Assembly (NCBI GenBank): GCA_001818315.1
Contig: MHKF01000013.1
Coordinates: 14,612 to 78,611, forward strand
Source of the DNA: Candidatus Kerfeldbacteria bacterium RIFCSPLOWO2_02_FULL_42_19
GTDB taxonomy: Bacteria > Patescibacteriota > Patescibacteriia > HO2-48-17
DNA: 64,000 bases
Direction of reading: 5' to 3'
Part shown: piece by piece, positions 9,637 to 59,593 of the stretch
Numbering within the stretch: the first letter of the stretch is position 1
Layout: the number at the start of each line of letters is the position of its first letter
Program-made: the position numbers and the translations under genes
Notes under the pieces: generated by a model
What the model saw: only the letters and a program-made list of their open reading frames with translations
Told to the model about the DNA's origin: nothing
Databases searched by the model: none

Positions 9637-9640
9637 AAAA

Positions 9641-9803
9641 GGGTCTGTCGCCGAATACGCTTTCGTCTGTGAAATCGTAGAATTTCGTGACAGAATTGCT
9701 GAATAAATTTTGAGGTTTATATGGAATATAAGCTGAAAAATTTTGAAGCGATGCTGGCCGAAATGCTACGATTGCAACAGAAATGGTATTCGGCGACAGA
9801 TCC
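9641..9803 (+). repeat. MITE-like element, type B (163 bp) with 20-bp TIRs GGGTCTGTCGCCGAATACGC / GTATTCGGCGACAGATCC
   Basis: It is more than 97% identical to a second copy at 31955-32118 and shares its terminal inverted repeats with the type-A elements. Confidence 0.8.
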
Positions 9804-9864
9804 TAAAAATAAAAAAACGGATCGCTGTCATATTGAGAGGAGCGCCGCTCTTTTGAGGATATCA

Positions 9865-10422: not shown

Positions 10423-10487
10423 ATTGTTGACTAAAATAAGCGGACGAGCTTTGAAATTTTTGCAAGAAAAATTTTCATTTTTCACAG

Positions 10488-10520
10488 ACGAAAGCGCATT
10501 CGGCGACAGTCCCATTATAC
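10488..10520 (-). repeat. solo TIR remnant of the MITE family (GGGACTGTCGCCGAATGCGCTTTCGTCTGTGAA)
   Basis: Matches the MITE terminal repeat. It lies between the methyltransferase start and the rnhB stop. Confidence 0.6.
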
Positions 10521-16812: not shown

Positions 16813-16873
16813 ATTATGAGTAGCGTATTAATCCTATGTTATATGTTTTCTTCAAATACGTTGTCACAATAAA

Positions 16874-17033
16874 GGACTGTCGCCGAATGTTATTTCTTGT
16901 TCAAGACACAAAATAAAGAAGAGGATGACTCTCCTTTCTCAGCACACTGTGCAGTGTTAGTGCTTCGAAAGCGAGAGTCATCCTCTTCTTTTGTTTTGCA
17001 CATTGCATAAGAAACGGCATTCGGCGACAGTCT
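16874..17033 (+). repeat. MITE-like element, type A: TIRs, variable stem, conserved palindromic core
   Basis: TIRs GGACTGTCGCCGAATG...CATTCGGCGACAGTC. Internal perfect 15-bp stem AAGAGGATGACTCTC/GAGAGTCATCCTCTT around the core CTTTCTCAGCACACTGTGCAGTGTTAGTGCTTCGAAAG. Confidence 0.8.
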
Positions 17034-20312: not shown

Positions 20313-20323
20313 TTGTATTTTAA

Positions 20324-20483
20324 GATAGTCGCCGAAGATCGTTTCTTATCCAAAGTAAAAAATAAAAGAGGAGGAAGACTCTTGCTTTCGAAGCACTCAC
20401 ACTGCATAGTGTGCTGAGAAAGGAGAGTCTGCCCCCTCTTTTGTTATGCGCATTGCACAGGAAACGATATTTGGCGACTATCT
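20324..20483 (+). repeat. MITE-like element, type A, divergent copy
   Basis: Degenerate TIRs GATAGTCGCCGAAG...TTTGGCGACTATC, stem AAGAGGAGGAAGACTCT/AGAGTCTGCCCCCTCTT, conserved core CTTTCGAAGCACTCACACTGCATAGTGTGCTGAGAAAG. Confidence 0.65.
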
Positions 20484-26080: not shown

Positions 26081-26095
26081 TTATCAATTTTTCTA

Positions 26096-26135
26096 TGATC
26101 AAAATGTATTTTTCACAGACGAAAGCGTATTCGGT
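26096..26135 (-). repeat. solo MITE TIR remnant (TTCACAGACGAAAGCGTATTCGGTGACATC)
   Basis: Matches the TIR in the reverse-complement orientation. It sits in the convergent intergenic region. Confidence 0.5.
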
Positions 26136-26192
26136 GACATCTCCAAAATAATTTCGCTTTTATTTTTGGGACACGGTGCTTACCAAAACAAC

Positions 26193-30407: not shown

Positions 30408-30514
30408 ATTTTTTTATTTTTGTTTTCCGAATCAAACTAATTTAATTTTAGCATAAAAATGCTTAAGAGTCAAAGTAATCATAGGTACATTCAAATCCCT
30501 CTGCATCATATTTT

Positions 30515-30698
30515 GGGACTGTCGTCGAATACGCTTTCGTCTGTGAAAGTGAATTTCAATCATAGAAAAAAGAGGAGGAAGACTCTCGCTTTCGAAGCAC
30601 TGACAGGGCACAGTGTGCTGAGAAAGGAGAGTCTTCCTCCTCTTTTGATGATCACGATTTCTTTTTCACAGAAGAAAGCGTATTCGGCGACAGACCCC
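30515..30698 (+). repeat. MITE-like element, type A, full length
   Basis: TIRs GGGACTGTCGTCGAATACGCTTTCGTCTGTGAAA...TTTCACAGAAGAAAGCGTATTCGGCGACAGACCCC, an 18-bp stem AAGAGGAGGAAGACTCTC, and the conserved core. Confidence 0.85.
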
Positions 30699-30761
30699 AT
30701 GAATACATTTCTGTCATTTTTTTCGACATTATTTATAATATAGATATCACGCTGTCGTGTA

Positions 30762-31676: not shown

Positions 31677-31702
31677 AAATATGCCATGTTTCGGAAAACT
31701 AA

Positions 31703-31872
31703 GGGACTGTCGTCGAATGTTATTTCTTGTTCAATATACAAAACAAAGGAGGCGGATGAGAACTTTCGAAGCACTGACAATGCACAGTGTGCTTCGAAAG
31801 TTCTCATCCGCCTCCTCTTTTGCTTATGACTAAAATTCATTTTCACGAGTGAAAGCGCATTCGGTGACAGTC
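31703..31872 (+). repeat. MITE-like element, type A
   Basis: TIRs GGGACTGTCGTCGAATG...GCGCATTCGGTGACAGTCC. Stem AAGGAGGCGGATGAGAAC/GTTCTCATCCGCCTCCTCTT around the core CTTTCGAAGCACTGACAATGCACAGTGTGCTTCGAAAG. Confidence 0.85.
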
Positions 31873-31954
31873 CACTCAAGGATACCGCGAAGCAATGCAA
31901 TCTCATTTGAGTTGATTCGATATATTCAACGAGTGCCGAAGGTGTTTTGCAATA

Positions 31955-32118
31955 GGGGTCTGTCGCCGAATACGCTTTCGTCTGTGAAATCGTAGAATTT
32001 CGTGACAGAACCGCTGAATAAATTTTGAGGTTTATATAGAATATAAGCTGAAAAATTTTGAAGCGATGCTGGCCGAAATGCTACGATTGCAACAGAAATG
32101 GTATTCGGCGACAGACCC
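31955..32118 (+). repeat. MITE-like element, type B (second copy)
   Basis: Differs from the 9641-9803 copy at only a few positions. Confidence 0.85.
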
Positions 32119-32253
32119 AATAGGGAGATATTGAGCTTTGATATCAATGAACCTTCGCGCAAAAAGCTGATGCTGTATTCTCAACTTCAAAACGCATATT
32201 TTTTACATTTGTGGCAAAAAATTGTTTTGTATCGTATTCATTTCAAACAGATT

Positions 32254-32269: not shown

Positions 32270-32761
32270 TGCAGGAATAAAATCATTCAATTGTGTGTTT
32301 ATTGCATTGGGAATTGCGCATTTCACTGAATTTCTATCGCAAAAGTTTGATACACATCGCTGTGTGAGTAGGAAATGCAATTTATTTCACTCTTCGCCTT
32401 TTCCACGAACTTTGCTGCAATGTGTAAATCATGTGTGGTTGATTTTAGAAAACTACTCTCCATGAGTTATGAGAGTTCTTGACCTTGGAATTCTCAATAA
32501 TACATAATCAACGATAATGGGGATTTTTAATTATTATAGCATAAAATTTACAGAAATACAATTTTGTAGTATAAAATGTTATTATGGTTGACAAAATTCT
32601 ATTTTTGGAGTATAATTTATAGTCTTAAAAGTACCTTTAAATAAACTAACACGGGTAGGTGTGGAGTGCCTCTATCTGACCCCCCACCTCCCACTTGTGT
32701 AAGCGTCGCTGTCTGTACATCGAAACAGATAAAGCGATGCGACCGAAGAAAGGATAAAGAG

Positions 32762-33589
32762 ATGAAAAATTTCGCAGGAATCGTGTTTTTCTTTTTGTAT
32801 TTTTTGGTTTCGGTTACCGCCCCAATGGCGCAGGAAGAAGAAGTGCGACCTGCTGGGTATGCGGAGGTTGGAGGGGGTATCGATAGTTATGCAGGCACCC
32901 ACGCGTTTTTCATTGACGCGGACGGTTGTTTGATGGGTTGGTGCTTGGGTCTCCGCGCGGGCGTCCCACCGAAGACAGCCGAGGTGGCGGGCGTTTATGT
33001 CCAAACCGTCAATATTTACGGCGGTTTCCACCTCATTAACATGGTGGAAGGGCATGACCGCGCTGCGCTTCGGATTATGGGTGGCGTTGCATCGTTCCCG
33101 CTTCCGGACACCGAGGAGTGGAACTACGACGAAGTTAAAACCGGTGAGGCCTGGAGCGATGCCGTGCTCCGGTTGAACGCCTTCGAGGTCGGCGGGAAAT
33201 TCGGTCGGCGTTGGTTCCCTGGCGAAGTTGCGCCGCATGTCTTCCTCTGGGAAGGCGAGGGAAAATTGTATCTTTCAAACAATTTTTCCTTCGGGGCGCG
33301 GATTGGCTCGCCGGAGCTCCCTCGCATCACGTTGAAAAATCAAAATTTTGTCCATCCTGGACATCAGATTGATTTTTCGATCAATATCGGGCAGCCGTAT
33401 TGGGGATTTTGGGGGGCGGAACTCTTCGGCGGATTCCAACCCTCTGATGAGGGCGGCGGCCACTTCGGGTTTCGGCTGCACCTCCGGTATCCATTCAAAC
33501 CGGAGTGGAAAGATTCGAAGCGAGAGGGACCGAAAAAACCGAAAATCCGACCGAGTTATCCTCCGCCCAGCGGCCCCGCTCCCAGATGA
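32762..33589 (+). CDS. GC-rich exported beta-rich protein (outer-membrane beta-barrel-like), likely horizontally acquired
   Basis: About 58% GC against about 40% for the rest of the window. Signal peptide MKNFAGIVFFFLYFLVSVTAPMA, alternating hydrophobic beta-strand pattern, Gly/aromatic-rich, and a Pro-rich tail. The upstream extension of the called ORF is not supported. Confidence 0.5.
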   Translation: MKNFAGIVFFFLYFLVSVTAPMAQEEEVRPAGYAEVGGGIDSYAGTHAFFIDADGCLMGWCLGLRAGVPPKTAEVAGVYVQTVNIYGGFHLINMVEGHDRAALRIMGGVASFPLPDTEEWNYDEVKTGEAWSDAVLRLNAFEVGGKFGRRWFPGEVAPHVFLWEGEGKLYLSNNFSFGARIGSPELPRITLKNQNFVHPGHQIDFSINIGQPYWGFWGAELFGGFQPSDEGGGHFGFRLHLRYPFKPEWKDSKREGPKKPKIRPSYPPPSGPAPR

Positions 33590-33783: not shown

Positions 33784-33912
33784 GACGCTGTCGCTGGATA
33801 ACGTTTCTTATACAATAAAAAAAGAGGGGGAAGATTCTCCCTTTCGAAGCACTAACACTGCACAGTGTGCTGAGATAGGGAGAATCTTCCCCCTCGTTGT
33901 TATTATGACAAG
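33784..33912 (+). repeat. MITE type A, degenerate copy (eroded TIRs, intact stem and core)
   Basis: Stem GAGGGGGAAGATTCTCCC/GGGAGAATCTTCCCCCTC flanks the core CTTTCGAAGCACTAACACTGCACAGTGTGCTGAGATAG. Confidence 0.55.
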
Positions 33913-33962
33913 TTAATTTTTCCAAGTCATCTACATCTTCTCATAGAGCAACTCTGAAGAGT

Positions 33963-36565: not shown

Positions 36566-38770
36566 TTATACAAGAGGCTCTTCAAAATCACCCTCCTCAT
36601 CAGACGCATTTGCATTGGTAGTATGTGTATTTGATCCGTTTCCAATCTTATCCATCTCGGCGATTTCTTTTTCTACATCTGTTGTTGGAGTTGCGTACTT
36701 CGTGCGACTTGCGGTCATCATTTTTTGACGGAGTTCGGCGGGGAAGACCGGATCTGGAACATCGATCGTCTTTGCAGAAAAGGCAGGAGTCACAACACCG
36801 TCGATAGACATCTTGAGATACATTTCGCGAATTCCAAGATTAATAATATCATATCCACTGAATCGCGGAGCAAATTCGTTGGCAATGTAATTGGCGTCAT
36901 CGGCGCCCATGCGCAGGGTAATAAGCGAACCTACATTCCCAAACACCGTCTCGCGCGTGGAAGCAAGTAACTGCCCAAGATACTGATGTGAAATCGTGAG
37001 GTTCAAGCGATATTTACGAGCTTCCGAGAGAATGTTATCAAATGTTTTTGTCGCAAAATTCTGAAATTCATCAACATAGAGATAAAAATCTTTCCGTTTT
37101 TCTGCGCTTAAAAATGCACGTGCCATGGCGGCTTGTTCGATTTTGGTGATGATGAGCGAACCAAGGAGCGCTGCATTTTCTTCACCGAGTTTTCCTTTTG
37201 AAAGTTCCACAAGCAGAATCTTTTCGTTATTCATAATTTCTTCAAGATCCACCTTGTTTTTGGATTGTGCTACGATATTCCGTACCATTTCGTTAGAGAG
37301 GAATTGTCCTAATTTGTTGACGAGCGGCACGATTGCTTCGTTATCAAATTTTTCCGACCAACTCGAAAATTCATTTGCCCAGAATTTTTTGACGACATGA
37401 TCTTGGATGACTGTAATCACTTGCTGGCGATACGCGCGATCTGTAAGCATCTTTTGAATGCCCATAATCGTCGCTTTCGGATAATCCAATAGCGCAAGAA
37501 CAGTAAATCGGAATACATGCTCAATTTTCGGTGACCAATCAGCGCCGAAAAATTTTTTAAACACTTCAATTAACCCCTGCGTTGTTTGTTGTTTGAATTC
37601 TCGCGACACGTTTGCTACAGGGTTAAAGGCAATCGGATAATCTAAATCCGCTGGACTAAAGAGTACGAGATCACTGATGCGCCTTTCCGGAACATGCGCG
37701 AGTACCGCCTGCACGAGATCACCGTGAGGATCAATCACACACACGCCTTTGTGCATCTTGATATCATCGGCAATAAGTTTTTCAAGGAGTTTGGATTTTC
37801 CGGTGCCGCTTTTACCTACAACATACAGATGCCGACGACGATCTTCGCGTTTAATTCCGAATTCCATCTGCTGTCCACGAAAATTTGTGACACCGAAAAT
37901 CGAAATATCCTGTGTCGGTGTATTTTCCGTAGAAGGTAAATGCATAGGCGGTTCAGCACGTCGAGAATAAAGCCAGTTCACGCCACTGATCTTGGACGCA
38001 GCATCTGGCGCGTGAAAGAGTGCTGCGATTTCGTCAGTGTTAAATACGCCAGTGGGTTGCTCTGAGTGACTAAAATAAGCATCGACCGCCGTCTGCACAG
38101 CAGGAGCCGTCTTTACAACGATTTGGAGTTGTTCTGTAGAAAACGGACTAAAAATGCTTTCAAAAGAAGCGTTGTGCATGTCAATGTGCGATGCGTTATT
38201 TGGAAAATAGAGGATGCGAATTGTCGTATTAAACTTCGGTTTTACTACCTGAATCTCCTGTTTTTCTGCAAAGCCATATAGACCGCTCGCGCGTGTGCCT
38301 TCGCCGGTGAGTGATTCATCTACTGTGCGGAGAATCAGCTGAAAAAAAACTGCATCCGTAGCTGGAATCTGACCCAAGACATTGAAAAAAGCATTCAGGG
38401 GATCCGCGCTCATCGTGCGCGCCGAGCGCAGTGAAAAAGCTTCGCTGCCTTTGAGTTGGACTTGAAAACCGACCGCTTGCGATGGAAGTCGGCTGAGTTG
38501 ATCATAATCGTCCATTGCTTCGAGCGAAGCATCTGGGAAGAGTGCATAAAAAAATGACCGTACCGTCGCAACGAGTACGTTGGGAGCGATCATATAAAAA
38601 TTCATGATGCCGCGAATTTGCACAATTTCGAGGCCGAGTGTTTCTTTATGATCCGACAGCGGCAAAAAAATACTGTAAAAAAAAGTTTCAAATTTTTCGA
38701 TTTGATTCAGAACGTTGGTATGCGCGCTCTCAAAAGGAAAACGCACACGAAGCATGACGGGTTGTTTCAT
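36566..38770 (-). CDS. large soluble ATPase of the VirD4/TraG/TrwB (DUF87/AAA_10) family
   Basis: About 735 aa. Walker A VVGKSGTGKSKLLEKL, then CVIDPHGDL, Walker B YLYVDEFQNF, and a C-terminal TraG-D_C-like region. No N-terminal TM helices. Confidence 0.6.
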   Translation of the reverse strand: MKQPVMLRVRFPFESAHTNVLNQIEKFETFFYSIFLPLSDHKETLGLEIVQIRGIMNFYMIAPNVLVATVRSFFYALFPDASLEAMDDYDQLSRLPSQAVGFQVQLKGSEAFSLRSARTMSADPLNAFFNVLGQIPATDAVFFQLILRTVDESLTGEGTRASGLYGFAEKQEIQVVKPKFNTTIRILYFPNNASHIDMHNASFESIFSPFSTEQLQIVVKTAPAVQTAVDAYFSHSEQPTGVFNTDEIAALFHAPDAASKISGVNWLYSRRAEPPMHLPSTENTPTQDISIFGVTNFRGQQMEFGIKREDRRRHLYVVGKSGTGKSKLLEKLIADDIKMHKGVCVIDPHGDLVQAVLAHVPERRISDLVLFSPADLDYPIAFNPVANVSREFKQQTTQGLIEVFKKFFGADWSPKIEHVFRFTVLALLDYPKATIMGIQKMLTDRAYRQQVITVIQDHVVKKFWANEFSSWSEKFDNEAIVPLVNKLGQFLSNEMVRNIVAQSKNKVDLEEIMNNEKILLVELSKGKLGEENAALLGSLIITKIEQAAMARAFLSAEKRKDFYLYVDEFQNFATKTFDNILSEARKYRLNLTISHQYLGQLLASTRETVFGNVGSLITLRMGADDANYIANEFAPRFSGYDIINLGIREMYLKMSIDGVVTPAFSAKTIDVPDPVFPAELRQKMMTASRTKYATPTTDVEKEIAEMDKIGNGSNTHTTNANASDEEGDFEEPLV

Positions 38771-38796
38771 ATACATTACTTAACAAGAAAAATAGT

Positions 38797-38975
38797 GGAC
38801 TGTCAATGAATGCGTTAATGCAGTGCGACTATCGCCGAATACTATTTCTTGTCCAATGCACAAAGCAAAAGAGGAGGAAGACTCTCCTTTCTCAGCACAC
38901 TGTGCAGTGTCAGTGCTTCGAAAGCGAGCGTCTGCCTCCTCTTTTTTCTATGATTCACATTCATTGCTTACAATT
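38797..38975 (+). repeat. MITE type A, copy with degenerate or duplicated TIRs
   Basis: Left end GGACTGTCAATGAATGCG plus a second partial GACTATCGCCGAATAC. Stem AAGAGGAGGAAGACTCTCC, conserved core, eroded right TIR. Confidence 0.65.
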
Positions 38976-39107
38976 CGGCTCCCAGTACGGAACGCGTCAT
39001 TTCTCAACACAAAGACCCTTCCTGTATTGAGTCCTGAGACTTGCTACAAGAAGGGTCTTAAAAATTACATACTCTCACTTAGGTTATCCGAAACATTTTT
39101 GCGTACA

Positions 39108-41489
39108 TCACGATTTTTTTACGATCTTCGCGATGAGCGCTTGCGTTTCCGGAGTGCCCACAAGCGAGAGAAAAGCTTCGCGTTCGAGATCAAGTAGATC
39201 CTGTTCAGTGACGAATCTACCGAGGTGGGTAGTCCCGCCACAGAGAATGTATGCAAGTCGACGGATGATGGTTGCTGAATGCGAGTCAAACGGAACCTCG
39301 AGCGCGATGATCACCCCTTCTGCGAGCGGCTGAGAGAGTGAGCATCCCGGCAGGTTGAAAAGAAACGGTTTCCGCGGCAGGTATAGCTGCTGTCCATTGA
39401 GCCAAAGCGCTTCTTGGCAAGCACGAAACAACACGTGCTCCTGACCGAGTCCACGCGAATGCACGATGAGATCATCGCATCGCAAGAATCCAAGATCTCG
39501 CGCGTGCACTGCGTGTTTGGAGCGAGCACACATTACGTGCAGCAGAAGCACTGGCTTTATGAACTGCCACGCCACCTCAACTGTCCAACCCGCGCCTGTC
39601 ATCACCTGAAACGGAATTCCCTCCAGTGCGTTCCGCAACGTACGCATGCATCCGCCCGCTGCCGCTACCAGACCCACATCCTTTTCCGGTTGACCCTGAA
39701 ACAGCCAGAAGTTTGCGACTGTGCGAGTACTTGCAAGGATGAGCTCACTACCAAGACCAAGTGCGAGGCTATGCGGTGCGACGACGACAGGCACTCTCGC
39801 ATAGGTCATCCTCTGCGTGAGATCCTGTGCCGTCACCAAAAACCGTTCGATCTCGGCGAAGTTTCCTGCCTGAGCCTGCTCCAGTAGCCACAAAAGATTT
39901 GCACCTGCAGAAAACGCCTTCTTGTGCGCATGTCCGACTATCACCGGGAGGTCGTCTGCTTCGGCAATGTTGAGTGCATCTTCTAACACATCAACGCATT
40001 GGAGAGTGAACGGATTCACCACACCCGAGTGGAATTCTACCAGCACCACATCGAGATCACCCAGACGGTATGCTGTCGCATCATTATTTTGACTGATGAT
40101 GTTTCCTCCATCCTCCCTTCGCAGTTCTTCGAGATCGATTATTTCTTCAGTCTCGGGAATGGACTGCCATACGCCATTACTTTGTCGTACACTCTGTGGT
40201 TTCTGTGGGGTACTATAGATGTGCACGCCAGCTTCTCGATACCAATCAGGTATCGCTGTCGCTGTAAAATAACCGACCTGCTCTGCACCGGCAATCACTG
40301 CAACACGCCCTATCATTTCACAGATCTGCAGAGGGCCGATGGGCCAGTTGAACCCCCATCGCATAGCCTTGTCAATGGAAAGTAGATCCTCACAGACTTT
40401 CCCCACGAGCCAGAGCGCGTAGGTAAGGACCGGGTAAAAGCAGTTCCGAGCAAATTCGGCTGCTGCATCTGGCCCCTGTAGAAGATGCTGGCGCGCTTTG
40501 TGAGCATCGCCCTGCTGCGTGAGTAGCGATGCTTCGCTCAGAGACGGGTACCTGTTCGAAGGTTGTTCAGGAAGGTACGGAACGTACATGTTGCTCTCAA
40601 AGTCGAAGACGAACTTCTGCTTGCCCTCACGAGCGTAGAACCCACGCTGATTCAGAGCGTTGCGACCCGTATGACAGAGCTTCACAAGTCGCTCGACGAA
40701 TTCGATGGGGTGGAAGTAGTGAAGGAACGGGTCGGGCTCGAGGTGCTCATAGTCGAACACGTTACTCGCGACCGGTTCCAGTAACTGCAGACCGACGATG
40801 TCTGCCGTGTTGAGCGGTTTCCAACCGAACAGTACCTGGAACACCGCATCAACATCATTGACCAGCATGCCCTTTGGCCAGTGAAAGAAAGGAATCTGCA
40901 TGGCCATGACGCCAAGTCGGTTCCCGATGAAGTTCGGCGTGTTAAAAACTTCTATAACTCCTTTCTGTAACACATCACGCCCGAACTCCATGAAGGCTGT
41001 GAAGAGTTGCGGATCTGTTGCAGTCCCCGCACAGACCTCGAGTAACGGCAGAACGGCAACTGGATTGAAGAAATGCGTGACGAACGTATTTTCACGCAAG
41101 TCTTGTGAAGTGCCCGCAACGATCTCATCAATGTTGAGGCCGCTCGTGTTGGAGCTCACGATAGCTTCTGCTCTGCGGTGCTGATCGATGAGTCTGAAGA
41201 CACCTTGCTTCACCTTGAGCTCTTCATAGACTGCCTCGACGATCCAATTGGCATCCGCGAGTCGCTTGTCATCAACACCGATTGTACACGGTCGAATGCG
41301 AAGCAGGTCTTGCGCAGAGAATACTGCACCGCGTTCAAGTAACTTCTCCCATGCGAGTTGAGAAACTTGCACGTCACCTTGCTGGACATCGAAGAGATCC
41401 ACATCAAACCACTGGGCAAGCCAGCCGGCAATCTGTGATCCCATCGTGCCCGCGCCGATAACGGCGACACGACGAATGTTGAGTTTCAA
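39108..41489 (-). CDS. fused 3-hydroxyacyl-CoA dehydrogenase (N-terminal) / enoyl-CoA hydratase (C-terminal), GC-rich
   Basis: 793 aa. N-terminal NAD Rossmann motif VAVIGAGTMGSQIA and HCDH core (EAVYEEL..SNTSGL..HFFNP..NRLG). C-terminal crotonase fold with KKAFSAGANL. GC is about 55%. Confidence 0.8.
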   Translation of the reverse strand: MKLNIRRVAVIGAGTMGSQIAGWLAQWFDVDLFDVQQGDVQVSQLAWEKLLERGAVFSAQDLLRIRPCTIGVDDKRLADANWIVEAVYEELKVKQGVFRLIDQHRRAEAIVSSNTSGLNIDEIVAGTSQDLRENTFVTHFFNPVAVLPLLEVCAGTATDPQLFTAFMEFGRDVLQKGVIEVFNTPNFIGNRLGVMAMQIPFFHWPKGMLVNDVDAVFQVLFGWKPLNTADIVGLQLLEPVASNVFDYEHLEPDPFLHYFHPIEFVERLVKLCHTGRNALNQRGFYAREGKQKFVFDFESNMYVPYLPEQPSNRYPSLSEASLLTQQGDAHKARQHLLQGPDAAAEFARNCFYPVLTYALWLVGKVCEDLLSIDKAMRWGFNWPIGPLQICEMIGRVAVIAGAEQVGYFTATAIPDWYREAGVHIYSTPQKPQSVRQSNGVWQSIPETEEIIDLEELRREDGGNIISQNNDATAYRLGDLDVVLVEFHSGVVNPFTLQCVDVLEDALNIAEADDLPVIVGHAHKKAFSAGANLLWLLEQAQAGNFAEIERFLVTAQDLTQRMTYARVPVVVAPHSLALGLGSELILASTRTVANFWLFQGQPEKDVGLVAAAGGCMRTLRNALEGIPFQVMTGAGWTVEVAWQFIKPVLLLHVMCARSKHAVHARDLGFLRCDDLIVHSRGLGQEHVLFRACQEALWLNGQQLYLPRKPFLFNLPGCSLSQPLAEGVIIALEVPFDSHSATIIRRLAYILCGGTTHLGRFVTEQDLLDLEREAFLSLVGTPETQALIAKIVKKS

Positions 41490-41769
41490 TGTGCACCTCC
41501 TTATATTCAGACTGTCTGAGAACTGCCAGTGTGGCGATTCTTGAAAATTTCGTTAACTAACCTTAGTCTCGAAATATTCAAAAAGTAATTGTCAGACAGT
41601 CTGTGCGAGATTCTGTAAATAACCTGCTCAAAAAACATCAGTACAACTTTAGGACTCTTCTTACAAAAAAAGAGGCCGTACACAAAGCTGACTGTCTGTC
41701 TTTAAAGACATGGCTATCCTACTAAAGAAATAGATTGTGTGCAAGATCACCTCATGGAGTCGAAAAACA

Positions 41770-41815
41770 GACAGAGACCTCGAGAAAAAAATTCTACGAG
41801 GTCTCTCTGAGATCT
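41770..41815 (-). terminator. rho-independent terminator after the 41842-43869 gene
   Basis: On the minus strand, AGAGACCTCG...CGAGGTCTCT hairpin followed by GTCTGTTTTTCG. Confidence 0.5.
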
Positions 41816-41841
41816 CTTATGATACCTTTCGCTCATCGACC

Positions 41842-43833
41842 TTACCGCTGCCTGAGTAAAAAGTTAATGCCTTTGGTTTGTTCATCTGCTTTTACCGTGA
41901 CTCCGGCTGCAGAAGAAGCATCTGATGCGTCGTTGTAATATTCTGTTTCGTATCCAGTACTTGCCACATATAGTTTATAGGTCCCCGCAGCCAGGCCATC
42001 CAAAATATAATATCCATTCTCATCCGTATACGCATAGTTCGATTTACCATACACCCTCACAGGGTATCCGGAAAGCGGCAGATTATTTGCTTCATCCCAA
42101 ACATATCCACTCACAGAACCTGCTAGTACAAGCTGCATATCCACTTGTCTTTGTTTACCGGCATCCAAAGTCTTCGTCACAATACGCTCTACATAATCAG
42201 TTGTCTGTACCCGAATCCGATATTTTCCTGCTTTCAACCCTTGCATCAGATAATATCCGTCGCTGTCCGTTGTTGTCGTTGTATACCCTTCGTCTTTTTC
42301 TGTATCGACAGAATATATCGTTACCGTCGCATTATCTACTGGCGCATTTTGAGAGGTCACGCGCCCAAATACCGCAGATGCCGTCTTTAAAGTATATTTT
42401 TTATCGGAAATGTTTGCATCAATCGTTACACTTTCCTTTTTCAAAACAATATACCCATCTTTCATAATTGTCAGTCGGTATTTTCCTAAAGCGATTTCAG
42501 AAAAATTAAAATTTCCGTTGCCATCGCTTGTTGCTTTTGCAACCCACGTATTCGTTCGAGGTGTATTCCGACTGTAAAGATACAGTGTCGCGTTATCGAG
42601 ACCCGCGTTATTTTTATCTCGGACTTGTCCACTGAAACTAAAACTTGAATCAAGACTAAAATTTCGACCCGATGTCGTTTCTCCAGACTTCACGACAATA
42701 TTGTACCGTTTTTCCGTCACAAACCCGGTTTTTGAAACCGTCAGTTTGTAACGCTTATTCGGACGCAAATTGGAAAAAGTATATGCGCCGTTATTGCCCG
42801 ACGTTGTGGTATATGTGTGTCCACTGCCATCATTAGCTGTCATCGTCGCATTAGCGATCGCGGTTGTTCCGTCATCTTCATATACAAATCCCGTGATGCT
42901 TCCACTTCGAGCTAGTGACACGTTACCTGCGCTCACCGTCGATTCGTCAGCGGTAATGCTTACGAGTCTTTTCTTCGCAATGTATCCGTTGGTACTTACT
43001 TCTAATGTATACGTGCCAACTGCCGTGCCATTGTAATCTGTAATATCAAAGACGGAGAGAGTAAAATCACCGTTTGCATCCGTTGTTGCTGTGTAGGTAT
43101 AGTAGGTTGAATTTTGATCCGACATCACAACTGTTGCGCCAGACAGTGGATTACTATTTTTATCCGTCACTTTCCCCGTTACACGACTTGCGCCTGTGAG
43201 TGTTACATTCTGCGTGTAGGTCTGTCCATCTTGTACGAGATTGATATCGTTGAGGATTTTTCCAAAATATCCTTGTCGGATCACATACATATCATACAAA
43301 CCTGTGGCTGTTCCTACGCCTGTGCCATAGGGAGTAGGCGCTACATAATACGAACCATCGGGTGTGCTTATTGAACCTCCAGAGCTGCGTATGGATCCAT
43401 CGACATTGTAGAGCGTCACACTCGCTTCATAGATCGGCGTCGTACCATTGGAAGCATACACATGACCCGTGAGCAGTGCGCGACGCGTCAAGGTAAAATT
43501 CACTCCAGTTTTATTTTCGCCGCTAGCGACCGTGACTGATTGTTCTGAAACAATAAACGTTGCTGTCGGTTCATCAGCGGTACTGCGGTAATTGTATACG
43601 GTATACGTACCGGCATTATCAACGGTAATAGAGTAGGCTCCGGCTGCATCGGTCGAATCGCCATCAGTCGTGCCGAGCGTTGCATCCTTCGCAAATATAA
43701 ACATGGTCGTGACTGGAGTTCCATCGGTGTGAGTGACGGTGCCTGAAATACTGATTGCGAGAACGTCGTGCCAGAAAAATATACCAACGAGGGTGAAAAA
43801 ACTAAAAAAAGTAGAAAGTAAAAATCTTTTCAT
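41842..43833 (-). CDS. secreted protein with tandem carboxypeptidase-regulatory-like / Cna-B-like beta-sandwich domains
   Basis: Signal peptide MKRFLLSTFFSFFTLVGIFF, then at least 6 repeats of roughly 90 aa rich in T/G/Y/V with a G-x-V/Y-x-F periodicity (ISGTVTHTDGTPV, LTGHVYASNGTPI, VTGKVTDKNSNPL, ITGFVYEDDGTAI, FSGQVRDKNNAGL, VFGRVTSQNAPV, VSGYVWDEANNLPL). Confidence 0.6.
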   Translation of the reverse strand: MKRFLLSTFFSFFTLVGIFFWHDVLAISISGTVTHTDGTPVTTMFIFAKDATLGTTDGDSTDAAGAYSITVDNAGTYTVYNYRSTADEPTATFIVSEQSVTVASGENKTGVNFTLTRRALLTGHVYASNGTTPIYEASVTLYNVDGSIRSSGGSISTPDGSYYVAPTPYGTGVGTATGLYDMYVIRQGYFGKILNDINLVQDGQTYTQNVTLTGASRVTGKVTDKNSNPLSGATVVMSDQNSTYYTYTATTDANGDFTLSVFDITDYNGTAVGTYTLEVSTNGYIAKKRLVSITADESTVSAGNVSLARSGSITGFVYEDDGTTAIANATMTANDGSGHTYTTTSGNNGAYTFSNLRPNKRYKLTVSKTGFVTEKRYNIVVKSGETTSGRNFSLDSSFSFSGQVRDKNNAGLDNATLYLYSRNTPRTNTWVAKATSDGNGNFNFSEIALGKYRLTIMKDGYIVLKKESVTIDANISDKKYTLKTASAVFGRVTSQNAPVDNATVTIYSVDTEKDEGYTTTTTDSDGYYLMQGLKAGKYRIRVQTTDYVERIVTKTLDAGKQRQVDMQLVLAGSVSGYVWDEANNLPLSGYPVRVYGKSNYAYTDENGYYILDGLAAGTYKLYVASTGYETEYYNDASDASSAAGVTVKADEQTKGINFLLRQR

Positions 43834-43982
43834 ATGAACGCGCTTAATGATCTGAATGATAAAATACATCGAAAATTTAATAATGACACAAAATTTTATT
43901 TTTCTCTGGAGTTTACGTATACTAAAACTATAATCAGTATAATACTCTATGATGGAATTGCAAATCGGTGTAAAAGCGCTTT

Positions 43983-44479
43983 TTACACCGTCTCAAGAGG
44001 GCTACTTTTAAAAATAGTGTGATAATTTTTGAGGCAATTTTTAAGACACTGCCTATATGTTTCTTCGATATACTGATAACCTTCGTCTTTTAAGTGCTGC
44101 ACGACGATCGGACGAATCTTCGCAAGCATGCGATTCGAAAGTTTTGGAAAGAGGTGATGTTCAATGTGACACTCGATAAAGGCATTGCCGCCCATGCCTT
44201 GTTCCAGAAGCGCGATTCTACAAACGCATTGTGTCGTGTTTCGTGCGTTCCGGTGATTCCGATGCCGTAGTAGGCGTAGGAAATAATGATTATGCCAAAG
44301 ATTTTGAATAAGATTCCGGTTTGTGCAAATATAAGGAATCCGCTCGCAAAGAGCAGTATGCGTAGCAGAAGATATACAAATTCCATGCCGTGCCGTTGCC
44401 ACCAATTTTGAGTTTTTACGATATTGTGGACTTTTTCCGAAAGCGCTTCGAAATTTTTTTGTGAAAGCTGAATTTCCAT
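43983..44479 (-). pseudogene. membrane fatty-acid desaturase remnant (internal deletion plus frameshift)
   Basis: One frame (44479 down to about 44200) encodes the N-terminal TM region and His box 1 HETRHNAF. A second frame (about 44190 down to 43983) encodes His box 3 and the C-terminus (NAFIECHIEHHLFPKLSNRMLAKIRPIVVQHLKDEGYQYIE). The central part of the protein, about 150 aa including His box 2, is absent. Confidence 0.55.
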
Positions 44480-44828
44480 AGTTCAAAAAAATGGAATCAG
44501 TAAACTTGCCTGTTAGAAACGCAAAATAACTTTTACCATATTCATATTATCAACTATACCGGTTGTATAATCAATATGCCAGTATTGACGCAATAGGGAA
44601 GAATTGCTACGTTAGGCATGCTGACGAAACATGCGGCAAGAGAGTTTTTTTTCTTCAATGAAATTGTTTCTTAATTTTGACATGCTCACATATTATTATT
44701 GCTGATGCCCACCAGCCGATATATACTATAATAAGTTGTTTTTACAATCGAAAAAGCAAACTTTTATAACCGTCGGCAGTGTCATGCTTTGCTGATTGCT
44801 CGCCGATAAATAATTTTGAATACTTTCT

Positions 44829-48122: not shown

Positions 48123-48692
48123 GTGATGAAAAAGAGAGATTGGCACCTTATTATTCTGTTTACCGCGAGCTTGCTGCTTGGGATACTCATCGGCATGACA
48201 CTCGCCACCGTGAAAAGCTCCGCAGCAGACAACGAAGTAGAGCATTTGAAAGCGGCGCGCAGTGCTGGAGATGGTGAATCACAAATCAGTTGGAGTTGTA
48301 CGGTTGGAAATGTTGAGTTGAAAATCACCCCCAGCACGATCAAGTTCGTCAACCGACAAGCGCTCAATGTCTGGGTTCACATCTTTCTCAAAACAGGGGA
48401 CAAAGACGACAACTGGGCTTTGATCGCCAAGTTCCATCTTGGTAACCCAATGCAGAAGACTCGTATTGGATCGTTGGGAAACCCACAGCAGTTCGTGCAA
48501 CTCGATCAAGTGATCGGGTTACGGAAACTTGCGTCCGGCGATGTGCTGTGGATTCAAGTAGAAACGTTTGAGCAGAAAACTCAAAAGCTGTTCAAACGAA
48601 TTTTGCCCTCGGAACCGCGCACAAAGCGGGAGAAGCCAACTGATGCTACGAGTACCAGCTTTCTTGGGAATGCGCAGACAGCTTTGGAATAG
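48123..48692 (+). CDS. hypothetical membrane-anchored protein
   Basis: 189 aa, N-terminal TM helix. No family recognised. GC is somewhat elevated. Confidence 0.45.
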   Translation: MMKKRDWHLIILFTASLLLGILIGMTLATVKSSAADNEVEHLKAARSAGDGESQISWSCTVGNVELKITPSTIKFVNRQALNVWVHIFLKTGDKDDNWALIAKFHLGNPMQKTRIGSLGNPQQFVQLDQVIGLRKLASGDVLWIQVETFEQKTQKLFKRILPSEPRTKREKPTDATSTSFLGNAQTALE

Positions 48693-52276: not shown

Positions 52277-52350
52277 ACACATAGAAGAAGGAAGATTGTG
52301 CTTTCGAAACACACTGTGCAGTGTTAGTGCCTCGACAGTGATAATCCTCC
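52277..52350 (+). repeat. fragment of a MITE type A core (CTTTCGAAACACACTGTGCAGTGTTAGTGCCTCGAC) with a degenerate stem
   Basis: Matches the conserved core of the repeat family. No TIRs. Confidence 0.45.
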
Positions 52351-52394
52351 TCGTATGACTTGCTCATAAAACGTATCGTCACTCAAAAATCGAA

Positions 52395-56726: not shown

Positions 56727-58730
<2,004 letters not shown>

Positions 58731-59119: not shown

Positions 59120-59593
59120 TCAGCGCACGTGTGTTCTCTGAAAGAAGAGCTTCGCACGGAGACGGAGAACGTCATCAAGCGCAATGAACGTGGGTGCGAA
59201 TATGCTCAGCGCGGTCGTGAGTGCTACAGAAATCACGAACACTAAAGGTATGCGCGTTTCCTTATGCAACAAGCCGATAATAATAACCTCTGCGATAGCC
59301 GCGAGGATTACTGGTAGACCTGCGGGCATGAGAGCGAGTAAAATCAGTGGCCAATTCTGCTGGGCTTCTTCCTTCATGAGATACATCGGCGCCGAAAGTC
59401 CGCATGCGACGAAAGCTGAGAGTGTAATGCTTGCAACGTGCAAATTCCCGAGCGCAAGCGCAAGCACACTCGATACGCTGCAGAATAGTACTGTTGCGTA
59501 CAAAGTCAGAGTCGGCCTGCTTTTGTAGAAGCAAAAAAAGATCGTGAGTATCAATGCGGTCGTGACTGCCGCTGTGCTTATCATGAAAATCAT
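59120..59593 (-). CDS. hypothetical membrane protein (4-5 TM helices)
   Basis: 157 aa. No family recognised. Confidence 0.4.
   Translation of the reverse strand: MIFMISTAAVTTALILTIFFCFYKSRPTLTLYATVLFCSVSSVLALALGNLHVASITLSAFVACGLSAPMYLMKEEAQQNWPLILLALMPAGLPVILAAIAEVIIIGLLHKETRIPLVFVISVALTTALSIFAPTFIALDDVLRLRAKLFFQRTHVR

What the first reader, a model, noticed from the sequence alone, without database searches (positions are those of the whole stretch)
39108..41489. GC-rich 3-hydroxyacyl-CoA dehydrogenase / enoyl-CoA hydratase fusion gene: a probable horizontal acquisition with no metabolic context in the window
The 793-aa ORF has about 55% GC against a ~40% background. It fuses an N-terminal NAD-dependent HCDH to a C-terminal crotonase, which is the reverse of the FadB/FadJ domain order and is the order I recall from archaeal and some actinobacterial fusions. 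No acyl-CoA dehydrogenase, thiolase or acyl-CoA synthetase lies nearby. CPR organisms are generally thought to lack beta-oxidation. The gene sits just downstream of a MITE copy. Roughly 2.5 kb on its other side lies a decayed fatty-acid desaturase. Together these suggest an imported lipid-metabolism island that has partly decayed.
Basis: partly seen in the sequence, partly recalled or inferred. Interest (0 to 1): 0.6.

Follow-up and report, generated by a model that had tools for sequence, protein, structure and literature searches.

The report
Imported orphan fatty-acid oxidation gene
A tiny symbiotic (CPR) groundwater bacterium carries one intact, foreign-looking gene for two middle steps of fatty-acid breakdown, apparently picked up from an unrelated bacterium without the partner gene it normally travels with; this is an ordinary enzyme family in an unusual host, not a new kind of system.

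Summary
The 793-aa ORF at 39108-41489 (-) is real. It is a FadN-type fusion: an N-terminal NAD-dependent 3-hydroxyacyl-CoA dehydrogenase and a C-terminal enoyl-CoA hydratase. All catalytic residues are present, the Shine-Dalgarno site is strong, and the AF2 model is confident (pLDDT 90).

GC is 53.4% against 43.1% for the rest of the window, and GC3 is 0.57 against about 0.39. The GC steps fall exactly at the ORF ends.

The window comes from a Candidatus Kerfeldbacteria (CPR) MAG. The same junctions occur in at least 5 independent assemblies, so a chimera is unlikely.

The gene belongs to a rare 8-member subfamily (100% NJ bootstrap). Its nearest relatives are only 37-43% identical. One host is Riflebacteria/Wallbacteria-like; none can be shown to be CPR.

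All seven relatives sit directly after a thiolase, and their GC tracks their host's. The window copy has no thiolase, no thiolase remnant and no other beta-oxidation gene within 64 kb.

Horizontal acquisition is therefore well supported. The "decayed lipid island" is not supported:
- The GC anomaly is the gene alone.
- The MITE-like repeat sits in about one spacer in five.
- The desaturase wreck 2.5 kb away has host-like GC.

A sibling MAG carries a nonsense allele (E448*). The gene's physiological role is unknown. Overall this is a new member of a known kind, of modest interest.

The parts
39108..41489 (-). [quoted passage not shown] This is the GC-rich segment.
   Evidence: ORF list; Pfam and NCBIfam; GC 0.534 vs 0.431; GC steps at the ORF ends; AF2 pLDDT 90.3, pTM 0.88.
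40947..41468 (-). NAD-binding Rossmann domain of the dehydrogenase (residues 8-181). It holds the GAGTMG motif, Ser116, catalytic His139 and Glu151.
   Evidence: PF02737, 128.5 bits. S116, H139 and E151 are invariant in the 48-sequence alignment and align with the SNTS / HFFNP / E motifs of solved HBD/HAD enzymes.
40260..40937 (-). Helical C-terminal dehydrogenase domains (about residues 185-410), including Asn190.
   Evidence: PF00725, two stretches. Foldseek superposes the N-terminal ~450 residues on 3MOG, 1ZCJ and the dehydrogenase halves of MFE-1 and M. tuberculosis FadB.
40080..40259 (-). Inter-domain linker (about residues 411-470), with lower model confidence. It contains codon 448 (GAA, first base at 40148), which reads TAA in a sibling MAG.
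   Evidence: pLDDT 64-78 in this stretch. G>T at window position 40148 in L097 gives E448*.
39111..40079 (-). Crotonase-fold enoyl-CoA hydratase module (about residues 471-793). It has the oxyanion-hole motif FSAGAN (F526, G529) and catalytic Glu582 and Glu602.
   Evidence: PF00378 31.7 bits and PF16113 29.9 bits. Alignments to solved crotonases show GxGxE and QPE conserved. These residues are invariant in 48 sequences. The C-terminal 170 residues fold confidently.
41494..41502 (-). Shine-Dalgarno sequence AAGGAGGTG. The GGAGG core ends 6 nt before the TTG start codon.
   Evidence: Read directly from the sequence. The N-terminus aligns with those of the homologues.
41765..41810 (-). Terminator-like hairpin followed by a U-run after the upstream CarboxypepD_reg gene. 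It insulates the FadN gene as its own transcription unit (inferred).
   Evidence: RNA fold of 41755-41845(-): -33.1 kcal/mol, z = -3.55, 0 of 200 shuffles fold as well. Inverted repeat I21.
39012..39059 (-). 22-nt-arm hairpin 50-95 nt after the stop codon. Possible terminator (inferred, no strong U-run).
   Evidence: Inverted repeat I2.
38822..38963 (.). Copy of a palindromic MITE-like intergenic repeat, 3' of the gene. It is adjacent, but no link to the acquisition is shown.
   Evidence: Repeat families D4/D5 and inverted pairs I2, I3, I8 and I9. Similar copies lie in about 10 spacers of the window.
43983..44486 (-). Fatty-acid desaturase pseudogene remnant, frameshifted and internally deleted. 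It is nearby but compositionally native (GC 0.41), and is not part of the GC-rich segment.
   Evidence: PF00487 27.7 bits, below the 29.7 cutoff, matching only the profile's C-terminal end. Three-frame translation shows HETRH and HIEHH in different frames. It matches only itself in the protein database.

Best explanation
The gene encodes an intact FadN-type bifunctional beta-oxidation enzyme. A Kerfeldbacteria (CPR) lineage acquired it horizontally from a non-CPR donor of higher GC content, as a single gene detached from the thiolase that precedes it in every known relative.

Mechanism, inferred from conserved residues and established knowledge of the two superfamilies:
- The C-terminal crotonase module (Glu582 and Glu602, with the oxyanion hole at F526-G529 and G578-G580) hydrates 2-trans-enoyl-CoA to (S)-3-hydroxyacyl-CoA.
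- The N-terminal module (GAGTMG NAD site, Ser116, the His139-Glu151 dyad, Asn190) oxidises that product with NAD+ to 3-ketoacyl-CoA. The pair could also run in reverse.

What is shown: the architecture, the residues, the fold confidence, the foreign composition, the phylogenetic isolation within CPR, and the missing partners within 64 kb.

What is inferred: catalytic competence, and the transfer itself.

Physiological role: unknown. My best guess is a fairly recent acquisition that is not embedded in a full beta-oxidation cycle. It would be either neutral or of marginal use, for example interconverting C4 acyl-CoA intermediates or working on scavenged host acyl-CoAs.
For: Identity and integrity
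- Domain calls, and a full-length collinear match to NF052272.
- Invariant catalytic residues are retained.
- AF2 pLDDT 90.3, with fold matches to HCDH and MFE enzymes.
- Strong Shine-Dalgarno site.
- The protein deviates from family-conserved columns no more than its subfamily mates do: 63 vs 65-68 at the 80% threshold, 19 vs 17 at 90%.

Foreign origin
- GC 0.534 vs 0.431 and GC3 0.572 vs 0.391, with steps at the ORF ends and the top tetranucleotide outlier in the window.
- The organism is CPR.
- The best non-self hits among 5.8 billion proteins and 1.84 billion cluster representatives are 37-43% identical.
- The subfamily of 8 has 100% bootstrap support.
- One relative's host is Riflebacteria/Wallbacteria-like.
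- No CPR genome is among the best 80 GTDB loci.
- In six other subfamily loci with DNA, the gene's GC lies within 0.03 of the locus GC.

Detachment from partners
- All 7 relatives follow a thiolase at a gap of -1 to 63 nt.
- The window has no thiolase and no remnant of one.

Not an artefact
- 14 contigs carry the gene, and five loci from independent assemblies were compared. All five are 100% identical to the window wherever they align, three over the full 22 kb fetched and two over 13 kb and 8 kb; all five include the upstream junction, and four also reach the downstream ATPase gene.

Background
- Beta-oxidation is reported as absent from nearly all CPR (PMC9166423), and was first reported in one exceptional Parcubacterium (PMC5220378).
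- HGT of lipid-degrading genes into Patescibacteria has been described (PMC12455944).
Against: - The nearest relative is only about 40% identical, so no donor is identified. The transfer cannot be dated, and an old transfer should have ameliorated further.
- Three subfamily members sit on short contigs of unknown taxonomy. Two of these have GC of about 0.42-0.43, so a CPR or otherwise low-GC source cannot be excluded.
- Three other small ORFs in the window have similar GC3 (0.56-0.58), so high GC3 is not unique to this gene.
- No mobility gene, tRNA target or bracketing repeat marks an insertion.
- Related CPR loci lack the gene, but they also lack synteny, so there is no clean empty site.
- There is no expression or activity evidence.
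- The rest of the genome could not be searched for partner enzymes.
Confidence: 0.75

Rival explanations
1. The gene is a functionless passenger. It was acquired, or left behind after loss of its thiolase partner, now drifts neutrally towards loss, and contributes nothing to the cell.
For: - It lacks the thiolase that accompanies all 7 relatives, and there is no other beta-oxidation gene in 64 kb.
- A sibling MAG from the same site carries a nonsense allele (E448*). This is one of only 2 differences in 6025 nt.
- A lipid gene 2.5 kb away is already a pseudogene.
- CPR are generally reported to lack beta-oxidation (PMC9166423).
Against: - The window copy is full length, keeps every catalytic and family-invariant residue, has a strong RBS and shows no excess of substitutions at conserved columns.
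- Five other assemblies carry the intact allele.
- Both differences in the sibling MAG are G>T on the same strand, a pattern also produced by oxidative damage or consensus error.
- Intactness is also what a very recent transfer would show, so this rival is hard to separate from the best explanation.
Confidence: 0.3
2. The gene is part of a larger imported lipid-metabolism island (about 38.9-44.5 kb) that includes the desaturase and was delivered or marked by the MITE, and that has since partly decayed.
For: Two lipid-related sequences lie within 5 kb of each other in a genome type that normally has none. A MITE-like copy lies in the adjacent spacer.
Against: - GC falls to background within 100-200 nt of both ORF ends.
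- The gene between the two (41842-43869) has native-like composition, GC 0.439 and GC3 0.398.
- The desaturase remnant has GC 0.41 and no traceable relatives.
- The MITE-like element occupies about 1 spacer in 5, so a copy next to any given gene is expected about a third of the time.
- No repeats bracket the region.
Confidence: 0.07
3. The gene was inherited vertically within CPR, and its high GC reflects gene-specific codon or amino-acid selection, not foreign origin.
For: - The hosts of three subfamily members are unknown, and two of these have GC similar to this genome.
- Other small ORFs in the window also have high GC3.
- Castelle et al. argued that the beta-oxidation genes of one Parcubacterium are divergent and not recently acquired (PMC5220378).
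Against: - No CPR-labelled homologue appears among the best hits of three large searches.
- Eight related CPR loci carrying the neighbouring ATPase lack the gene.
- Within the family, the gene's GC tracks host GC, so the family has no intrinsic GC bias.
- GC2 is normal while GC1 and GC3 are shifted.
Confidence: 0.07
4. It is an assembly or binning chimera: a fragment of another organism's genome joined into a CPR contig.
For: The sharp compositional boundaries are what a chimeric join would also produce.
Against: - The same junctions, identical to the base, occur in contigs from at least 5 independent assemblies and samples (ENA, NCBI and Logan). All five include the upstream junction and four reach the downstream ATPase gene.
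- The foreign segment is exactly one ORF with its own RBS.
- Both flanks, and a 16S rRNA gene, lie on the same contig.
Confidence: 0.02

Closest known systems
FadN of Bacillus subtilis (YusL) / 'FadB' of Staphylococcus aureus (NCBIfam NF052272): about 750-800-aa 3-hydroxyacyl-CoA dehydrogenase/crotonase fusions
   Same: - Same domain order, dehydrogenase then hydratase.
- Same length class.
- Collinear over residues 4-792 against profile positions 2-746 of 752.
- Same catalytic residues in both modules.
- About 29-33% identity to Bacillales members.
   Different: - It scores 263 bits against a cutoff of 999, so it is not an equivalog of the staphylococcal protein.
- It belongs to a separate, deep 8-member subfamily.
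- It is not in a fad operon, with no adjacent thiolase or acyl-CoA dehydrogenase.
- Its host is a CPR bacterium.
FadB/FadJ alpha subunits of the bacterial trifunctional enzyme, and peroxisomal MFE-1
   Same: They have the same two catalytic modules and chemistry. The dehydrogenase half superposes on them (Foldseek E about 1e-17), and the crotonase motifs align.
   Different: The domain order is opposite, hydratase first. No solved chain covers the whole model (TMq at most 0.40). The NCBIfam FadB and FadJ models match only the dehydrogenase half and score far below their cutoffs.
Thiolase-FadN gene pairs of the same subfamily in uncultured bacteria (P0002-P0004, P0246-P0249), one of them in a Riflebacteria/Wallbacteria-like genome
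   Same: These are the closest sequences known (37-43% identity). They form a clade with 100% bootstrap support and share subfamily-specific departures from the family consensus.
   Different: All of them lie immediately after a thiolase and have GC equal to their host's. The window copy is alone and 10 GC points above its host.
Beta-oxidation gene cluster of 'Candidatus Parcunitrobacter nitroensis' (the CPR exception; PMC5220378)
   Same: It is a precedent for fatty-acid oxidation enzymes in a Parcubacteria-group CPR genome.
   Different: That genome has a complete, co-localised pathway: separate hydratases and a dehydrogenase, plus thiolases, acyl-CoA dehydrogenases, ETF and ligases. Its authors interpret it as not recently acquired. 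Here there is a single fused gene with foreign composition and no partners in view. I did not compare the sequences directly.

Membership tests
FadN-type dehydrogenase-hydratase fusion (HCDH at the N-terminus, crotonase at the C-terminus) | N-terminal Rossmann NAD-binding 3HCDH_N domain with a GxGxxG motif | tested here: met
   PF02737, 128.5 bits, residues 8-181. G12-A-G14-T-M-G17 is conserved.
FadN-type dehydrogenase-hydratase fusion (HCDH at the N-terminus, crotonase at the C-terminus) | Dehydrogenase catalytic His-Glu dyad with substrate-binding Ser and Asn | tested here: met
   S116, H139, E151 and N190 are invariant in 48 sequences and align with the SNTS / HFFNP / E / N motifs of solved HBD/HAD enzymes. 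The assignment of roles rests on established HAD/HBD enzymology.
FadN-type dehydrogenase-hydratase fusion (HCDH at the N-terminus, crotonase at the C-terminus) | C-terminal crotonase fold with two catalytic glutamates and an oxyanion hole | tested here: met
   PF00378, 31.7 bits (cutoff 27). E582 (GSE) and E602 (QPE), together with F526, G529, G578 and G580, are invariant or nearly so and align to solved crotonases. The whole module folds confidently.
FadN-type dehydrogenase-hydratase fusion (HCDH at the N-terminus, crotonase at the C-terminus) | Full-length collinearity with family members (about 750-800 aa, same order) | tested here: met
   NF052272 aligns residues 4-792 to profile positions 2-746 of 752. 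Hundreds of full-length hits have 98-100% query coverage.
FadN-type dehydrogenase-hydratase fusion (HCDH at the N-terminus, crotonase at the C-terminus) | Encoded in a fad operon next to a 3-ketoacyl-CoA thiolase (fadA) | tested here: not met
   All 7 subfamily relatives follow a thiolase. The window has none, and no remnant in the flanking spacers. This is a feature of genomic context, not of the protein.
FadN-type dehydrogenase-hydratase fusion (HCDH at the N-terminus, crotonase at the C-terminus) | Measured hydratase and NAD-dependent dehydrogenase activities | not testable with these tools
   This needs an enzyme assay.
NCBIfam NF052272 Staph_FadB (exception-type model) | Score at or above the curated cutoff (999 bits) | tested here: not met
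   263.2 bits. It is a homologue, not an equivalog.
FadB/FadJ trifunctional-enzyme alpha subunit | Hydratase module N-terminal to the dehydrogenase module, and scores above the TIGR02437 / NF008727 / NF008363 cutoffs | tested here: not met
   The domain order is reversed. Scores are 108-139 bits against cutoffs of 869-934, and only the dehydrogenase half matches.
Horizontally acquired gene or genomic islet | Composition differs from the host genome, with sharp boundaries | tested here: met
   GC +0.10, GC3 +0.18, tetranucleotide z = 3.9, with steps at the ORF ends. Control: relatives match their hosts' GC.
Horizontally acquired gene or genomic islet | Phylogenetic incongruence: nearest relatives lie outside the host lineage | tested here: inconclusive
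   The nearest relatives are 37-43% identical. One host is Riflebacteria/Wallbacteria-like. Others are unplaced short contigs. No CPR genome is among the top hits. No close donor was found.
Horizontally acquired gene or genomic islet | Empty site in sister genomes, or mobility signatures (integrase, tRNA target, flanking repeats) | tested here: not met
   Eight related CPR loci lack the gene but are not syntenic. No bracketing repeats were found. No mobility gene is adjacent.

The most novel reading that the evidence does not exclude
A CPR episymbiont has recruited a stand-alone hydratase/dehydrogenase from a rare, deep-branching FadN subfamily. It uses the enzyme without a thiolytic cycle. 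Possible uses are to modify or partly oxidise acyl-CoA or 3-hydroxyacyl intermediates scavenged from its host, or to re-oxidise NADH through crotonyl-/acetoacetyl-CoA. This would be an early, observable step in the assembly of lipid metabolism in CPR by gene transfer.
Probability: 0.12. Interest if true: 0.5.

Novelty: new member of a known kind. Interest (0 to 1): 0.25.

Why it matters
CPR bacteria are thought to lack both fatty-acid synthesis and beta-oxidation, and how they obtain and process lipids is an open question.

This is a clean case of a single foreign beta-oxidation gene fixed in a CPR population. The gene is intact, it has been stripped of its operon partner, and a possible knockout allele is segregating in the same population.

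It is a small but concrete data point on how metabolic genes enter, and perhaps leave, these reduced genomes. It also flags a rare FadN subfamily, always paired with its own thiolase, that has no characterised or structurally solved member.

It does not reveal a new mechanism or a new class of system.

Tried and rejected
1. **Selection test (pN/pS).** The 90% cluster holds only identical sequences. They differ in the called start or in being split. Five assemblies are 100% identical to the window. There is no variation to analyse.
2. **Empty-site test.** I used the flanking TraG/HerA-like ATPase as an anchor. Eight related metagenome loci (58-75% identity) have no FadN within 10 kb, but synteny is poor. 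Only L089 shares two other genes. The result is therefore weak.
3. **Origin of the desaturase remnant.** A merged conceptual translation matched only its own annotated fragment.
4. **Thiolase remnants.** Relaxed tblastn against the two flanking spacers gave only noise, and nothing was found in the whole window at E <= 1.
5. **Promoter scan.** Sigma-70-like sites were no more frequent than in shuffles, and none lay in the upstream spacer on the coding strand. The consensus may not apply to CPR.
6. **Bracketing repeats.** I found only short chance matches, with no target-site duplication or other insertion signature.
7. **GTDB species-representative scan.** It did not return the closer subfamily or the source genome itself, so it cannot count as exhaustive evidence of absence from other CPR.
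8. **Taxonomy of the short contigs** carrying P0246, P0248 and P0249. They hold no tRNA or marker genes and no protein searches remained.
9. **Accelerated evolution after transfer.** Rejected. Identity to outgroups is 31.7%, against 30.5-30.9% for the relatives. Root-to-tip distance is no longer than theirs, and deviations at conserved columns are similar.
10. **A degenerate crotonase half,** suggested by the weak, partial Pfam match. Rejected on catalytic residues and the confident AF2 fold.
Full report
**1. The observation**

The window has a 793-codon ORF at 39108..41489 on the minus strand. Pfam finds:
- a 3-hydroxyacyl-CoA dehydrogenase NAD-binding domain at residues 8-181 (128.5 bits);
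- the dehydrogenase C-terminal domain (40.5 bits, two stretches);
- a crotonase/enoyl-CoA hydratase domain at residues 481-619 (31.7 bits, just above the cutoff).

The ORF's GC is 0.534 against 0.431 for the rest of the window. GC3 is 0.572 against a mean of 0.391 (sd 0.065) for 42 other ORFs, and GC1 is the highest of all 43. GC2 is ordinary. A 200-nt profile shows GC rising from about 0.43 to 0.52 at 39.1 kb and falling from 0.54 to 0.375 at 41.5 kb, which is exactly at the ORF ends. The segment is the strongest tetranucleotide outlier in the window (z = 3.9), ahead of the 16S rRNA gene.

**2. Whose genome this is, and whether the join is real**

The protein is 100% identical to a hypothetical protein of Candidatus Kerfeldbacteria bacterium RIFCSPHIGHO2_02_FULL, a CPR/Parcubacteria-group MAG.

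The window otherwise carries ordinary housekeeping genes: trigger factor, NusA, RuvB, TsaD, PilB-type ATPase, the SUF system, cysteine desulfurase, nine tRNAs and a 16S rRNA gene.

The gene was found on 14 contigs. Five loci from independent assemblies (ENA, NCBI, Logan) are 100% identical to the window wherever they align: three over the full 22 kb fetched, and two over 13 kb and 8 kb. All five include the upstream junction, and four reach the downstream ATPase gene. An assembly chimera is therefore very unlikely.

**3. What the protein is**

The best full-length profile match is NCBIfam NF052272, '3-hydroxyacyl-CoA dehydrogenase/crotonase FadB' of staphylococci. It is collinear over residues 4-792 but scores 263 bits against a cutoff of 999. 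This is the FadN architecture, with the dehydrogenase first and the hydratase last. It is the reverse of FadB/FadJ and MFE-1.

The arrangement is common. Full-length relatives at 27-33% identity occur in Bacillales, Chloroflexota, Myxococcota, Desulfobacterota, Acidobacteriota, Cyanobacteria, Marinimicrobia, Acidimicrobiia and others.

In a 48-sequence alignment the residues that define both active sites are invariant, and the window protein keeps all of them:
- Dehydrogenase: Ser116, His139, Glu151 and Asn190.
- Hydratase: Phe526 and Gly529 (oxyanion-hole motif FSAGAN), Gly580 and Glu582, and Glu602.

The functional roles of these residues are taken from established enzymology of the HAD/HBD and crotonase families.

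An AlphaFold2 model built on that alignment is confident throughout (mean pLDDT 90.3, pTM 0.88). This includes the last 170 residues, which Pfam does not cover. Only the inter-domain linker is softer. Foldseek places the N-terminal ~450 residues on PaaH, MFE-1 and M. tuberculosis FadB dehydrogenase halves. No solved chain spans the whole model, consistent with the permuted order. No FadN-type protein appears in the PDB by sequence either.

The TTG start is preceded by AAGGAGGTG, with the GGAGG core 6 nt upstream. The N-terminus aligns with those of homologues. The upstream gene ends in a strong hairpin plus U-run (z = -3.55), so the gene is probably its own transcription unit.

**4. Relatives and origin**

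The word-indexed search of 5.8 billion proteins found, after the self hit, three proteins at 37-40% identity. Below these came a broad plateau at about 33%. An exhaustive HMMER pass over 1.84 billion cluster representatives added one at 43% (39% by BLASTP) and three at 34-37%.

In NJ trees these seven plus the window protein form a clade with 100% bootstrap support, well separated from all other FadN-type sequences. The branching inside the clade is unresolved.

The window protein is not on an accelerated branch. Its mean identity to outgroups is 31.7%, against 30.5-30.9% for its relatives, and its root-to-tip distance is no longer than theirs. It departs from family-conserved columns about as often as its subfamily mates do: 63 vs 65-68 at the 80% threshold, 19 vs 17 at 90%. 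Those departures are subfamily traits, not decay.

The 341-kb contig holding the relative P0002 encodes a Lon protease 85-89% identical to those of Candidatus Riflebacteria/Wallbacteria MAGs. It also carries SelB and other genes atypical of CPR. The other contigs are either non-CPR-looking (Ser/Thr kinase, sigma factors, a PBP) or too short to place.

No CPR genome appears among the named top hits of any search.

**5. Two internal controls**

First, in the six other subfamily loci with DNA, the gene's GC lies within 0.03 of its locus GC, across hosts from 0.42 to 0.67. Only the Kerfeldbacteria copy stands 0.10 above its surroundings. The family has no built-in GC bias, so the excess is a property of this copy's history.

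Second, all seven relatives lie immediately downstream of a thiolase, with a gap of -1 to 63 nt. The window copy has no thiolase and no recognisable remnant in the 352-nt upstream or 331-nt downstream spacer. There is no thiolase, acyl-CoA dehydrogenase, ligase or ETF anywhere in the 64 kb (and the Pfam inventory).

The simplest reading is that only the distal gene of a thiolase-FadN pair was captured or retained.

**6. The 'island' idea**

The MITE-like repeat is real. It is a palindromic element of about 160 nt with GACTGTCGCCGAAT-type ends, and one copy lies at 38822-38963. Copies or fragments occupy about 10 of the roughly 50 spacers in the window. One would therefore expect a copy next to any given gene about a third of the time.

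The desaturase is a true wreck. An N-terminal frame carries transmembrane segments and HETRH. A frameshift then joins it, about 20 residues later, to a C-terminal piece with HIEHH. Intact desaturases have well over 100 residues between these boxes. Pfam matches only profile positions 177-251 of 253, below its cutoff.

The remnant's GC (0.41) is native-like, as is that of the CarboxypepD_reg gene lying between it and FadN (GC 0.44). It has no detectable relatives other than itself. No repeats bracket the region, and no mobility gene is adjacent.

The evidence supports a one-gene insertion, not a multi-gene island.

**7. Function and fate**

The chemistry can be stated with reasonable confidence. 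The protein hydrates 2-enoyl-CoA and carries out NAD-dependent oxidation of (S)-3-hydroxyacyl-CoA, or the reverse reactions.

Its role in this cell cannot be stated. Surveys report no beta-oxidation in CPR (PMC9166423), with one exceptional Parcubacterium that has a complete, co-localised pathway (PMC5220378). HGT of lipid-degrading genes into Patescibacteria has been described (PMC12455944).

A sibling MAG from the same site (GCA_001818335.1) differs from the window at only 2 of 6025 bases. One is G>T at 40148, which turns Glu448 in the linker into a stop and splits the gene into 432-aa and 313-aa ORFs. The other is a Q102H change in the neighbouring RNase T gene. This hints at dispensability. 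However, both changes are G>T on the same strand, a pattern that oxidative damage or consensus errors also produce.

I rate 'horizontally acquired, intact, catalytically competent FadN-type enzyme, orphaned from its pathway' at about 0.75. Within that reading, I give about 0.3 to the view that it is already a functionless passenger.

**8. Verdict**

The horizontal-transfer interpretation is supported. The island, MITE and desaturase linkage is not supported.

The gene is a new, divergent member of a known enzyme family in an unusual host. It is of interest mainly to people studying CPR metabolism and gene flow. I score interest at 0.25.

Noticed in passing
window 9638-9817, 10455-10519, 16870-17033, 20319-20477, 26086-26150, 30509-30711, 31700-31880, 31956-32132, 33795-33924, 38822-38963, 52282-52359: A family of palindromic MITE-like intergenic elements (about 80-160 nt). 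They have GACTGTCGCCGAAT-type terminal inverted repeats and a central long hairpin, occur in both orientations, and share 63-98% identity. About one spacer in five holds a copy. There was no Rfam match at gathering threshold.
   Followed up: partly
window 32666-33589 (+): A second sharply bounded GC-rich segment (GC 0.55-0.58, against 0.29-0.40 just upstream) holds an ORF of 275-307 aa with no Pfam or NCBIfam match. MITE-like copies flank it on both sides (31700-32132 and 33795-33924). It may be another foreign insertion.
   Followed up: partly
window 48123-48692 (+) and 59120-59593 (-): Two further small ORFs have GC3 of 0.56-0.57 and no family match. The first has a 28%-identical counterpart in a related CPR locus (L089), so high GC3 alone does not prove foreign origin in this genome.
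   Followed up: partly
L097 2013 (= window 40148) and window 36212: The sibling MAG GCA_001818335.1 differs from the window at 2 of 6025 bases. Both are G>T on the coding strand: E448* in the FadN gene and Q102H in the RNase T gene. This is either a real knockout allele or a damage/consensus artefact.
   Followed up: partly
window 56975-57057 (-), next to the 16S rRNA gene at 57259-58730 (-): Rfam finds a group II intron D1-D4 domain (55.5 bits) about 200 nt 3' of the 16S rRNA gene. It is followed by tRNA-Ile and tRNA-Phe and then a Na/Ca exchanger gene. No 23S rRNA gene lies in the window, so the rRNA genes appear unlinked.
   Followed up: no
window 36566-38776 (-); L091, L092, L094, L096: The gene just downstream of FadN encodes a 736-aa HerA/TraG/VirD4-like ATPase (weak DUF87, TrwB_AAD_bind and TraG-D_C matches). 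It is conserved at 58-75% identity in related CPR contigs, several of which carry a second paralogue upstream of it.
   Followed up: partly
window 43983-44486 (-): A fatty-acid desaturase pseudogene with HETRH and HIEHH boxes in different frames and a large internal deletion. Its GC is native-like and it has no database relatives other than its own annotated fragment.
   Followed up: yes
L001, L003, L098, L099, L100, L102: A rare FadN subfamily has 8 clusters in the searched databases. It is always encoded directly after a dedicated thiolase, in hosts spanning 42-67% GC, one of them Riflebacteria/Wallbacteria-like. It has no characterised or structurally solved member.
   Followed up: partly
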